Of a stretch of DNA of 64,000 nt, positions 41,211-44,200 are shown one piece after another. Every line of letters begins with the position of its first letter. Within the stretch, counting starts at the first letter, position 1. A program made the translations under genes and the position numbers. Source of the DNA: Giardia intestinalis (lineage: Eukaryota); the NCBI GenBank assembly GCA_000002435.2, contig CM018790.1. The stretch is one strand, 5' to 3'. Under the pieces are notes generated by a model. The model was not told the DNA's origin, searched no databases, and saw only the letters and a list, made by a program, of their open reading frames with translations.

Positions 41211-44200
41211 ATGTTGCTAGGGCTTCTCCTATTTTGTGCAGTAGCACGGGCAAACTGCAAGGCCGGGAACACGCCCTCACAAGACGGGACGACGTGCGAG
41301 CCGAATGCAAACGGATGTGCCAAAGCCTTGACCGACGCCGGCTGTGCGACCTGCACCCCGGCGGGTGACGACCAGACGTGCCTCACCTGCAACCCCGGTT
41401 CAAACAAGGTCAGGCCGGACAGGAAGGGCTGCATCGCTTCGTGTCCCGCCAACTCGAACGAGGCAGGAGGAATCTGCACGTGCACGGCCGGGAACACGCC
41501 CTCACAAGACGGGACGACGTGCGAGCCGAATGCAAACGGATGTGCCAAAGCCTTGACCGACGCCGGCTGTGCGACCTGCACCCCGGCGGGTGACGACCAG
41601 ACGTGCCTCACCTGCAACCCCGGTTCAAACAAGGTCAGGCCGGACAGGAAGGGCTGCATCGCTTCGTGTCCCGCCAACTCGAACGAGGCAGGAGGAATCT
41701 GCACGTGCACGGCCGGGAACACGCCCTCACAAGACGGGACGACGTGCGAGCCGAATGCAAACGGATGTGCCAAAGCCTTGACCGACGCCGGCTGTGCGAC
41801 CTGCACCCCGGCGGGTGACGACCAGACGTGCCTCACCTGCAACCCCGGTTCAAACAAGGTCAGGCCGGACAGGAAGGGCTGCATCGCTTCGTGTCCCGCC
41901 AACTCGAACGAGGCAGGAGGAATCTGCACGTGCACGGCCGGGAACACGCCCTCACAAGACGGGACGACGTGCGAGCCGAATGCAAACGGATGTGCCAAAG
42001 CCTTGACCGACGCCGGCTGTGCGACCTGCACCCCGGCGGGTGACGACCAGACGTGCCTCACCTGCAACCCCGGTTCAAACAAGGTCAGGCCGGACAGGAA
42101 GGGCTGCATCGCTTCGTGTCCCGCCAACTCGAACGAGGCAGGAGGAATCTGCACGTGCACGGCCGGGAACACGCCCTCACAAGACGGGACGACGTGCGAG
42201 CCGAATGCAAACGGATGTGCCAAAGCCTTGACCGACGCCGGCTGTGCGACCTGCACCCCGGCGGGTGACGACCAGACGTGCCTCACCTGCAACCCCGGTT
42301 CAAACAAGGTCAGGCCGGACAGGAAGGGCTGCATCGCTTCGTGTCCCGCCAACTCGAACGAGGCAGGAGGAATCTGCACGTGCACGGCCGGGAACACGCC
42401 CTCACAAGACGGGACGACGTGCGAGCCGAATGCAAACGGATGTGCCAAAGCCTTGACCGACGCCGGCTGTGCGACCTGCACCCCGGCGGGTGACGACCAG
42501 ACGTGCCTCACCTGCAACCCCGGTTCAAACAAGGTCAGGCCGGACAGGAAGGGCTGCATCGCTTCGTGTCCCGCCAACTCGAACGAGGCAGGAGGAATCT
42601 GCACGTGCACGGCCGGGAACACGCCCTCACAAGACGGGACGACGTGCGAGCCGAATGCAAACGGATGTGCCAAAGCCTTGACCGACGCCGGCTGTGCGAC
42701 CTGCACCCCGGCGGGTGACGACCAGACGTGCCTCACCTGCAACCCCGGTTCAAACAAGGTCAGGCCGGACAGGAAGGGCTGCATCGCTTCGTGTCCCGCC
42801 AACTCGAACGAGGCAGGAGGAATCTGCACGTGCACGGCCGGGAACACGCCCTCACAAGACGGGACGACGTGCGAGCCGAATGCAAACGGATGTGCCAAAG
42901 CCTTGACCGACGCCGGCTGTGCGACCTGCACCCCGGCGGGTGACGACCAGACGTGCCTCACCTGCAACCCCGGTTCAAACAAGGTCAGGCCGGACAGGAA
43001 GGGCTGCATCGCTTCGTGTCCCGCCAACTCGAACGAGGCAGGAGGAATCTGCACGTGCACGGCCGGGAACACGCCCTCACAAGACGGGACGACGTGCGAG
43101 CCGAATGCAAACGGATGTGCCAAAGCCTTGACCGACGCCGGCTGTGCGACCTGCACCCCGGCGGGTGACGACCAGACGTGCCTCACCTGCAACCCCGGTT
43201 CAAACAAGGTCAGGCCGGACAGGAAGGGCTGCATCGCTTCGTGTCCCGCCAACTCGAACGAGGCAGGAGGAATCTGCACGTGCACGGCCGGGAACACGCC
43301 CTCACAAGACGGGACGACGTGCGAGCCGAATGCAAACGGATGTGCCAAAGCCTTGACCGACGCCGGCTGTGCGACCTGCACCCCGGCGGGTGACGACCAG
43401 ACGTGCCTCACCTGCAACCCCGGTTCAAACAAGGTCAGGCCGGACAGGAAGGGCTGCATCGCTTCGTGTCCCGCCAACTCGAACGAGGCAGGAGGAATCT
43501 GCACGTGCACGGCCGGGAACACGCCCTCACAAGACGGGACGACGTGCGTATCAGAGACGGCCTGCAATACTCCCAACTGCAAGGCATGTGATAACCCGAA
43601 GACTGACAGAGAGGTCTGTACTGAATGTAATGATAAAAGTTATCTCACTCCAACAAATCAGTGCGTATCCGACTGCACGGCCATCAGCGGATACTATGGA
43701 GATACTGACAGGAAGTGTAAGGCATGCAGCCCTGAGTGCGCTGAGTGCGTTGGGCCAGCCAACAATCAGTGTAGTGCTTGTCCTGCTGGCAAGGCATTAA
43801 TATACAAAAGTAGTGATCCTATGCAAGGGGGCACCTGCGGGGATGCGTGTACGGCGGACAAGAACGGATGTAAGGTCTGTGGGGCAAGGATCGGCGGGAC
43901 AGACTACTGCTCCCAGTGCTCAGTGGATAATCAGGCTCCTCTGAACGGGGTCTGTACAACAAGTAACGCACGAGTAGCTTTCTGTACTGAAATGAATAAT
44001 GGAGCATGTACCAAATGCGCCGCTAACTACTTCCTCAAGGAAGGCGGCTGCTATGAAACTACCAAGCAGCCAGGCAAACAGATATGCACATTAGCTGATA
44101 GCAAGGGTGAGTGCGAAACATGTGCCAATGGTCTTCAGCCCAATAATGGAGCATGCCCCTCGTGTCATTCGACCTGCAAGACATGCTCGACTGCAGATAG

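What the first reader, a model, noticed from the sequence alone, without database searches (positions are those of the whole stretch)
41261..43548. Ten nucleotide-identical 225-bp (75-aa) tandem repeats inside the VSP ectodomain
All shadow ORFs recur at exactly 225-bp spacing with identical translations, so the copies appear to have no mismatches at all. The unit (...CEPNANGCAKALTDAGCATCTPAGDDQTCLTCNPGSNKVRPDRKGCIASCPANSNEAGGICTCTAGNTPSQDGTT) carries ~10 Cys in CxxC/CxC spacing. The 225-bp unit and 10-copy count seen here do not match any named repeat VSP that I recognise. Perfect identity indicates concerted evolution, and the copy number is probably polymorphic between clones and isolates. 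Short-read assemblies commonly miscount such arrays.
Basis: seen in the sequence. Interest (0 to 1): 0.6.

Follow-up and report, generated by a model that had tools for sequence, protein, structure and literature searches.

The report
Known Giardia VSP with 225-bp repeats
The ten identical 225-bp repeats are real and lie in the coding region of a Giardia surface-antigen (VSP) gene, but this gene and its repeat are already listed in two published catalogues, so the finding is correct and ordinary.

Summary
Window 41261-43548 has a perfect 225-bp period: 2288 bp, ten complete nucleotide-identical units plus 38 bp. It lies in frame in a 1099-aa ORF (41211..44510, +).

The ORF is a canonical Giardia variant-specific surface protein. 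Its sequence is identical to XP_001703907.2 / KAE8302486.1, which is GL50803_0050363 on chromosome 2 of G. intestinalis WB-C6.

The claim that it matches no recognised repeat VSP does not hold:
- It is vsp165 ("HH_TR225") in Adam et al. 2010. That entry has 1024 aa and 133 Cys, which is this protein minus one 75-aa unit.
- Its 225-bp unit is entry 17 in the tandem-repeat table of Rodríguez-Walker et al. 2022.
- The named VSP AS7 has a 75-aa repeat in the same register, with units 65% identical.
- Four other VSPs, three of them from WB-C6, carry perfect 74-76-aa arrays.

The likely mechanism is a rod of identical cysteine-rich modules that forms the outer ectodomain. Unequal recombination probably keeps the units identical and changes their number in steps of 75 aa. 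This is inferred, not shown.

One context feature was added. The array lies in the 3467-bp spacer of a 4071-bp inverted repeat with 2 mismatches. The other arm ends in a frameshifted pseudo-VSP.

Novelty: already known. Interest: low.

The parts
41209..41215 (+). Initiator element TAATGTT spanning the start codon
   Evidence: Read directly from the sequence. Both catalogues list TAATGTT for this gene.
41211..44510 (+). VSP coding sequence, 1099 aa. It is GL50803_0050363 / XP_001703907.2 / KAE8302486.1, and vsp165 in Adam et al. 2010.
   Evidence: ORF listing. Exact-sequence look-up. Pfam VSP PF03302 at E = 5.4e-88. Catalogue matches.
41211..41252 (+). Signal peptide MLLGLLLFCAVARA
   Evidence: Translation. 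The supplement of Rodríguez-Walker et al. lists a predicted signal peptide, MLLGLLLFCAVARANC. It is nearly identical to the AS7 leader.
41261..43548 (+). Perfect tandem array: 10 identical 225-bp (75-aa) units plus 38 bp. It extends to 41256 with one mismatch. GC is 65% and GC3 is 79%.
43549..44417 (+). Non-repeated cysteine-rich part of the ectodomain, next to the membrane. GC is 53% over 43549-44507.
   Evidence: It is homologous to the post-array region of AS7.
44418..44510 (+). Transmembrane segment [30 protein letters not shown] tail (44493-44507) and stop codon
44521..44540 (+). Conserved VSP 3' motif GACTTAGGTAGTAAACGCAT, which contains the AGTAAA polyadenylation signal
   Evidence: Found by pattern match. 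The supplement lists it for this gene. A mirror copy lies at 39274-39293 on the minus strand.
43641..47711 (.). Right arm of a 4071-bp inverted repeat. It covers the last 870 bp of the VSP ORF (43641-44510) and 3.2 kb of apparently non-coding DNA downstream.
   Evidence: The only 2 mismatches are at 44304 and 43643. No convincing ORFs.
36103..40173 (.). Left arm of the inverted repeat
39304..40892 (-). Head-to-head partner, a pseudo-VSP. The 229-aa piece 39304-39993 is GL50803_112048 / vsp166. It has a 1-nt deletion just inside the junction with the inverted repeat (about 40174-40190) and no signal peptide. It keeps one degenerate copy of the repeat unit (40182-40448, 47% aa identity).
   Evidence: It is annotated pVSP in the supplement.
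41153..43582 (-). 809-aa antisense 'shadow' ORF. It is a by-product of a unit with no stop codon in that frame, not a gene.
   Evidence: Its translation repeats with the array and it has no start-codon context of its own.

Best explanation
The array is the N-terminal, membrane-distal 70% of the ectodomain of an intact, transcribed variant-specific surface protein of Giardia intestinalis WB-C6 (GL50803_0050363, or vsp165). It starts 15 to 17 codons after the ATG, directly after the signal peptide. It encodes ten identical 75-aa modules, each with 10 cysteines.

Each module is predicted to fold into small disulfide-braced beta-hairpin sub-domains of the furin-like or EGF-like kind. The array would then form a stiff rod that displays the same epitope ten times.

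The period is a multiple of three and the units are identical. Unequal sister-chromatid or allelic exchange, or slippage or single-strand annealing during repair, can therefore add or remove whole 75-aa modules without breaking the reading frame. The same processes keep the copies identical (concerted evolution).

Shown here: the array, the gene's identity, the VSP architecture, a one-unit difference between two assemblies of the same clone, and an array in the paralogue AS7 with the same boundaries but different units. Inferred: the recombination mechanism, the rod-like fold, and an immunodominant multivalent role by analogy with the 195-bp repeat of VSPA6.
For: - Perfect 225-bp periodicity over 2288 bp.
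- The ORF has a signal peptide, 143 Cys, 34 CXXC, a transmembrane segment plus CRGKA, and matches PF03302 at E = 5.4e-88.
- It has a TAATGTT initiator and the conserved 3' motif.
- It matches XP_001703907.2 / KAE8302486.1 of WB-C6 exactly. It is GL50803_0050363 on NC_051857.1, and its unit is printed as tandem repeat 17.
- Adam et al. 2010 list vsp165 as HH_TR225, chromosome 2, TAATGTT, 1024 aa, 133 Cys, 32 CXXC. These numbers equal this protein minus one unit (1099-75, 143-10, 34-2). Its partner vsp166 has 229 aa and 27 Cys, which also matches.
- Paralogues carry perfect arrays of 74-76 aa units: 16, 11, 5, 13 and 4 copies. All 10 Cys of the unit align across the six tandem-array units.
- AS7 shares both array boundaries with this gene, while its units are 65% identical and the collapsed genes 70% identical.
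- AS7 also differs by one unit between sources: 721 aa in the cDNA and 646 aa in the 2007 genome.
- Transcripts of GL50803_50363 are reported, and they stay raised after excystation (PMC8700996).
- An AlphaFold2 model of three units has mean pLDDT 79.9 and repeats the same helix and hairpin pattern in each unit. The best PDB matches are furin-like repeats, but they are weak (E = 0.015).
- Adam et al. 2010 state that VSPA6 repeats are immunodominant and that vspA6 and vspC5 vary in copy number between alleles.
Against: - No direct evidence here that copy number varies between alleles, clones or isolates. The 9 versus 10 difference could be collapse in the 2007 Sanger assembly rather than biology.
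- Adam's table gives 'Rep # 6' for vsp165, which disagrees with its own protein length.
- Perfect identity could also come from one recent amplification, without continuing homogenisation.
- The fold assignment rests on a 7-sequence alignment and on structural matches that all have E > 0.001.
- Surface display and antigenicity of this particular VSP were not tested.
- No close orthologue of the repeat was found in other isolates, so conservation of the array cannot be judged.
Confidence: 0.85

Rival explanations
1. The array is real, but its exact state (10 copies, zero differences) is partly a product of assembly or polishing. The true locus may have another copy number, or a mix of allelic copy numbers, in this tetraploid organism.
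For: - Two assemblies of the same clone differ by one unit (1024 versus 1099 aa).
- Adam et al. warn that repeat numbers may be condensed by assembly.
- The 2020 assembly was polished with Quiver and then corrected with Illumina reads.
- The array sits 92 bp from a 4-kb inverted repeat, which makes read placement harder.
Against: - The array is only 2.3 kb, well within single PacBio reads that can anchor in the unique spacer on its left.
- The Sanger-based protein has exactly the Cys and CXXC counts expected for identical units.
- The Sanger-sequenced AS7 cDNA also has identical units.
- Four other VSPs show perfect arrays.
Confidence: 0.12
2. The ten copies come from one very recent amplification of a single 225-bp unit. 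There is no continuing concerted evolution. Identity only reflects youth.
For: - There are zero differences, including at synonymous sites.
- The 5' flank differs from the unit at only one base, as expected if a short flanking direct repeat seeded the amplification.
- The pseudo-VSP partner keeps a single divergent unit.
Against: - AS7 has an array of the same period with the same 5' and 3' boundaries, but its units are about 35% different. The simplest account is that the array predates the split of the two genes and has been homogenised separately in each.
- Several other paralogues have 74-76-aa arrays that are internally perfect and differ from one another.
Confidence: 0.2
3. The repeat is a non-coding satellite, or the 809-aa antisense ORF is the real gene.
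For: A long antisense ORF exists at 41153..43582.
Against: - The sense frame runs from a signal peptide through the array into a canonical VSP C-terminus.
- Every cysteine position is conserved across paralogous units.
- The antisense ORF starts with TTG and has no family match.
- The sense gene is annotated and transcribed.
Confidence: 0.01

Closest known systems
vsp165 (Adam et al. 2010, BMC Genomics 11:424), which is GL50803_0050363 / XP_001703907
   Same: It is the same gene. It shares the head-to-head arrangement, the 225-bp repeat, chromosome 2 and the TAATGTT initiator. The length, Cys count and CXXC count differ by exactly one unit. The unit sequence is printed in Rodríguez-Walker et al. 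2022, supplement entry 17.
   Different: The 2007 assembly implies 9.17 copies (1024 aa), and its table says 'Rep # 6'. The window, from the 2020 PacBio assembly, has 10.17 copies.
VSP AS7 (vsp21, GL50803_137717, GenBank AY142136)
   Same: It is the closest named paralogue. The leader is nearly identical (MLLGLLLFC[A/T]VARANCKAGNTPS). It has a 75-aa / 225-bp repeat in the same register, and the same post-array sequence (CVSETACNTPNCK...). Its units are internally identical.
   Different: Its units are only 65% identical to those here. It has 4-5 copies rather than 10 and lies on chromosome 5. The collapsed proteins are 70% identical.
VSPA6 / CRP170 (vsp67), vspC5 (vsp90) and CRP136 (vsp130)
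   Same: All have the classic repeat-VSP layout: a short leader, then an in-frame tandem array of identical cysteine-rich units, then the conserved C-terminus. VSPA6 also has a non-repeated region after the array, as here.
   Different: Their units are 195, 105 and 120 bp, in more than 20 copies. Allelic copy-number variation (vspA6, vspC5) and immunodominance (VSPA6) were shown experimentally for those genes, not for this one.
Furin-like cysteine-rich repeats (R-spondin Fu1-Fu2; CR domains of EGFR, IGF1R and the insulin receptor)
   Same: The AlphaFold2 model of three units gives its best structural matches to these disulfide-rich beta-hairpin modules. SMART finds furin-like or EGF-like repeats in many VSPs.
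   Different: The matches are weak: best E = 0.015, TM-score at most 0.38, none at E <= 0.001. Pfam finds no furin-like domain in the unit. This is a resemblance in build, not shown membership.

Membership tests
Giardia variant-specific surface protein (VSP) | N-terminal signal peptide | tested here: met
   MLLGLLLFCAVARA at the N-terminus. The published catalogue lists it as a predicted signal peptide.
Giardia variant-specific surface protein (VSP) | Cysteine-rich ectodomain (about 11-13% Cys) with many CXXC motifs | tested here: met
   143 Cys in 1099 aa (13%) and 34 CXXC.
Giardia variant-specific surface protein (VSP) | Conserved C-terminal transmembrane segment ending in CRGKA | tested here: met
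   ...[30 protein letters not shown] followed by a stop codon. Pfam PF03302 at E = 5.4e-88 against a cutoff of 31.4 bits.
Giardia variant-specific surface protein (VSP) | Initiator element at the ATG and conserved 3' motif with polyadenylation signal | tested here: met
   TAATGTT at 41209-41215. GACTTAGGTAGTAAACGCAT at 44521-44540.
Giardia variant-specific surface protein (VSP) | Displayed on the trophozoite surface, one VSP at a time | not testable with these tools
   Only RNA evidence from the literature: GL50803_50363 is raised in cysts and stays raised after excystation (PMC8700996).
Tandem-repeat-containing VSPs (30 of 228 complete genes in Adam 2010; 36 of 136 in Rodríguez-Walker 2022) | In-frame tandem array that starts just after the leader, with a unit of 105-516 bp | tested here: met
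   The array starts 45-50 nt after the ATG. The unit is 225 bp, a multiple of 3.
Tandem-repeat-containing VSPs (30 of 228 complete genes in Adam 2010; 36 of 136 in Rodríguez-Walker 2022) | Listed by name in the published catalogues | tested here: met
   vsp165, HH_TR225. GL50803_50363, repeat entry 17, with the identical unit sequence.
Tandem-repeat-containing VSPs (30 of 228 complete genes in Adam 2010; 36 of 136 in Rodríguez-Walker 2022) | Copy number varies between alleles or sources | tested here: inconclusive
   9.17 copies in the 2007 assembly and 10.17 in the 2020 assembly. This could be biology or assembly collapse. No read-level data were available.
Tandem-repeat-containing VSPs (30 of 228 complete genes in Adam 2010; 36 of 136 in Rodríguez-Walker 2022) | The repeat region is immunodominant | not testable with these tools
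   Known for VSPA6 only.
Identical inverted VSP pairs (Adam 2010; Xu 2020, Table 2) | Two identical complete ORFs in inverted orientation | tested here: not met
   Only the last 870 bp of the ORFs and 3.2 kb downstream are shared. The partner is frameshifted and lacks a leader. The pair is not in Xu's Table 2.

The most novel reading that the evidence does not exclude
The array may owe its state to where it sits. It lies 92 bp from the inner edge of a 4.07-kb, 99.95%-identical inverted repeat, and the other arm ends in a dead VSP that keeps only one degenerate unit. The palindrome could promote breaks or template switching at its centre. That would drive repeat expansion in the live gene, while gene conversion keeps the arms identical. 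The arms are about 8-14% diverged between isolates WB and DH. They are near-identical within WB over their full length, and 99% identical over the 424 bp that can be compared in DH. On this reading, repeat VSPs at palindrome centres would be hotspots for somatic antigen-size variation.
Probability: 0.08. Interest if true: 0.45.

Novelty: already known. Interest (0 to 1): 0.15.

Why it matters
The finding matters little as a discovery. The gene, its 225-bp unit and its membership of the repeat-VSP class are already published.

It has some practical value:
- It shows that the reference copy number rose from 9 to 10 units between the 2007 and 2020 assemblies.
- It shows that the repeat count in Adam's table is inconsistent with that table's own protein length.
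- It shows that the locus cannot be recovered from short-read assemblies.

Anyone using this VSP for serology, vaccine design or expression profiling should treat its length as provisional until spanning reads are counted. GL50803_50363 is one of only two VSPs reported to stay raised after excystation.

Tried and rejected
- A homology search with a two-unit (150-aa) query returned one candidate and no scoring hit, although the parent protein is in the collection. I treat this as a limit of the word index or composition filter for this repetitive query, not as absence. The full-length query worked.
- I tried to fetch the DNA of paralogues P0019 and P0020, to test whether their arrays are also identical at the nucleotide level. 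Neither is on record. Identity in the paralogues is therefore shown only at the protein level.
- A sequence search of the PDB gave no hit. Pfam finds nothing in the isolated unit.
- The Foldseek search against the PDB gave only weak matches to furin-like repeats. I did not run further fold searches because they would not change the verdict.
- I looked for genes in the 3.2-kb parts of the inverted-repeat arms downstream of the VSP stop codons. There are only short ORFs with no resemblance to known proteins. The 197-aa ORF has no Pfam hit and is not in the protein collection. I treat this DNA as non-coding.
- No reverse-transcriptase remnant was identified by these checks.
- I considered the antisense 809-aa ORF as a gene and rejected it.
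- No close orthologue of the repeat was found in other isolates. The best non-WB hits cover only the C-terminal third.

Full report

Yes. Tandem Repeats Finder reports a single array at 41256-43548: period 225, 10.2 copies, 99% matches, no indels, score 4579. A lag-225 self-comparison gives one unbroken run of 2063 matches. The perfectly periodic block is therefore 41261-43548, which is 2288 bp or 10.17 copies. The ten complete units are one and the same sequence, and the repeat finder agrees. The block can be extended 5 bp to the left with one mismatch at 41260.

**2. What is it?**

The array lies in frame in the ORF 41211..44510 (+), which is 1099 aa. The protein has these parts, in order:
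- a leader, MLLGLLLFCAVARA;
- the repeats, which begin 15-17 codons after the ATG;
- about 290 aa of non-repeated cysteine-rich sequence;
- a hydrophobic segment and the CRGKA tail.

It contains 143 Cys (13%) and 34 CXXC motifs. It matches Pfam VSP (PF03302) at E = 5.4e-88. The start codon sits in the initiator TAATGTT. The conserved VSP 3' motif GACTTAGGTAGTAAACGCAT lies 10 nt after the stop codon.

An exact-sequence look-up identifies the protein as KAE8302486.1 / XP_001703907.2, 'VSP', from Giardia intestinalis WB clone C6, on a 1,539,535-bp contig. The two flanking genes are GL50803_00102071 and GL50803_008348. The 809-aa antisense ORF is a by-product of a unit that has no stop codon in that frame.

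**3. Is it already catalogued?**

Yes, twice.
- Additional file 1 of Adam et al. 2010 (PMC2996952) lists vsp165 as clade II, 'HH_TR225', 225 nt per repeat, chromosome 2, complete, TAATGTT, 1024 aa, 133 Cys, 32 CXXC. Removing one unit from the window's protein gives exactly 1024 aa, 133 Cys and 32 CXXC.
- The head-to-head neighbour in that table is vsp166 (GL50803_112048), with 229 aa and 27 Cys. This equals the window's minus-strand ORF read from its internal Met.
- The supplement of Rodríguez-Walker et al. (bioRxiv 10.1101/2022.03.07.483299) lists GL50803_0050363 as XP_001703907.2, NC_051857.1, 1099 aa, 143 Cys. It prints its 225-bp unit as tandem repeat 17, identical to the TRF consensus found here, and counts the motifs 10 times.

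So the gene is known, and the reference moved from 9.17 to 10.17 copies between the 2007 and 2020 assemblies. The 'Rep # 6' in Adam's table is inconsistent with that table's own protein length.

**4. Relatives**

A full-length search and inspection of the hits show a subfamily of VSPs, most of them from the WB-C6 assembly, with internally perfect arrays of 74-76-aa units:

| Protein | Unit length | Copies | Note |
|---|---|---|---|
| P0019 | 74 aa | 16 | |
| P0020 | 75 aa | 11 | |
| P0021 | 75 aa | 5 | VSP AS7 |
| P0022 | 74 aa | 13 | |
| P0023 | 76 aa | 4 | |

The units align with all ten cysteines in register across the six tandem-array units. They are 40-65% identical to the unit here.

AS7 is the closest named relative. 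It has nearly the same leader, the same array start, the same array end (…DGTTC|VSETACNTPNCK…) and the same 225-bp period. Its units are only 65% identical, and the collapsed proteins are 70% identical. AS7 also differs by one unit between its cDNA (721 aa) and the 2007 genome (646 aa).

Each array has zero internal divergence, while two arrays in the same position differ by about 35%. This is the signature of concerted evolution. It argues against a single recent burst, although it does not exclude one.

**5. How it most likely works**

Shown here:
- an intact VSP whose outer 70% is ten identical modules;
- a period that is a multiple of three;
- a one-unit difference between sources;
- reported transcription, with GL50803_50363 one of two VSPs that stay raised in trophozoites after excystation (PMC8700996).

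Inferred:
- Unequal exchange or slippage adds and removes whole modules and keeps them uniform.
- The modules form a rod that displays one epitope many times. The 195-bp repeat of VSPA6 is immunodominant, and vspA6 and vspC5 alleles differ in copy number (Adam et al. 2010).

An AlphaFold2 model of three units (7-sequence alignment, mean pLDDT 79.9, pTM 0.40) repeats one short helix and several beta-hairpins per unit. Its best PDB matches are furin-like repeats (R-spondin Fu1-Fu2, and the CR domains of IGF1R and EGFR). These matches are weak, with the best at E = 0.015. No sequence relative has a solved structure.

**6.

The array lies in the 3467-bp spacer of a 4071-bp inverted repeat, with arms at 36103-40173 and 43641-47711. 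The arms differ at only 2 positions, and identity drops to background immediately outside them.

Each arm holds the last 870 bp of a VSP ORF plus 3.2 kb with no convincing ORFs. The inner boundary falls at the conserved …YLTPTNQC… segment.

The left-hand gene is not a twin. It has a 1-nt deletion within about 15 nt of the boundary and no leader. It contains a single divergent unit, 47% identical at the protein level. It is annotated as a pseudo-VSP. The pair is therefore not one of the 'identical inverted pairs' of Adam 2010 or Xu 2020.

In isolate DH (assemblage AII), the contigs from both flanks run into the arms and stop there. The two DH contig ends are reverse complements of each other at 99% over 424 bp. 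They are only 86-92% identical to the WB arms, while the single-copy flanks are 97.5-97.8% identical.

**7. Verdict**

This is a typical, already catalogued tandem-repeat VSP. The residual uncertainty concerns the true, possibly allelic, copy number. There is also a speculative link between the palindrome and repeat dynamics.

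Noticed in passing
window 36103-40173 and 43641-47711: A 4071-bp inverted repeat with only 2 mismatches (39510/44304 and 40171/43643). It encloses a 3467-bp spacer that holds the repeat array. Identity falls to background immediately outside both ends of each arm.
   Followed up: partly
window 39304-40892 (-): The head-to-head partner (GL50803_112048 / vsp166) is a pseudo-VSP. It has a 1-nt deletion next to the inner boundary of the inverted repeat and no signal peptide. 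It keeps one degenerate copy of the 75-aa unit (40182-40448, 47% identity).
   Followed up: yes
L001:14615-15791 and L006:1-1151 (isolate DH, AII) versus window 36103-37368 and 46488-47711: The arms are 86-92% identical between WB and DH, while the adjacent single-copy DNA is about 97.5% identical. The two DH contig ends match each other at 99% over 424 bp. L001 also carries about 711 bp with no counterpart in WB.
   Followed up: partly
window 47558-48862 (+): An ORF that contains only the nucleotide-binding domain of an ABC transporter (PF00005, E = 6.5e-18). It straddles the outer edge of the right arm, and its only internal Met is at 47984. The WB protein accession numbers skip it. DH annotates a 271-aa product, 95% identical over 255 aa. 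It may be a truncated gene or a pseudogene.
   Followed up: partly
window 41261-43548 versus 43549-44507: The repeat unit is much richer in G+C (65%, GC3 79%) than the non-repeated remainder of the same gene (53%, GC3 54%).
   Followed up: no
window 34566-41210 and 44511-48903: There are 6.6 kb and 4.4 kb on either side of the VSP with no annotated protein. The neighbouring genes have consecutive GenBank accessions KAE8302485, -86 and -87. This is unusual for a genome that is 81% coding, but Xu et al. 2020 note that regions around VSPs are gene-poor.
   Followed up: partly
Adam et al. 2010, Additional file 1, row vsp165: The table gives 'Rep # 6', but its protein length (1024 aa) and Cys count (133) require 9.17 copies. 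In the same way, vsp21/AS7 is listed with 3 repeats, but 646 aa implies about 4.
   Followed up: yes
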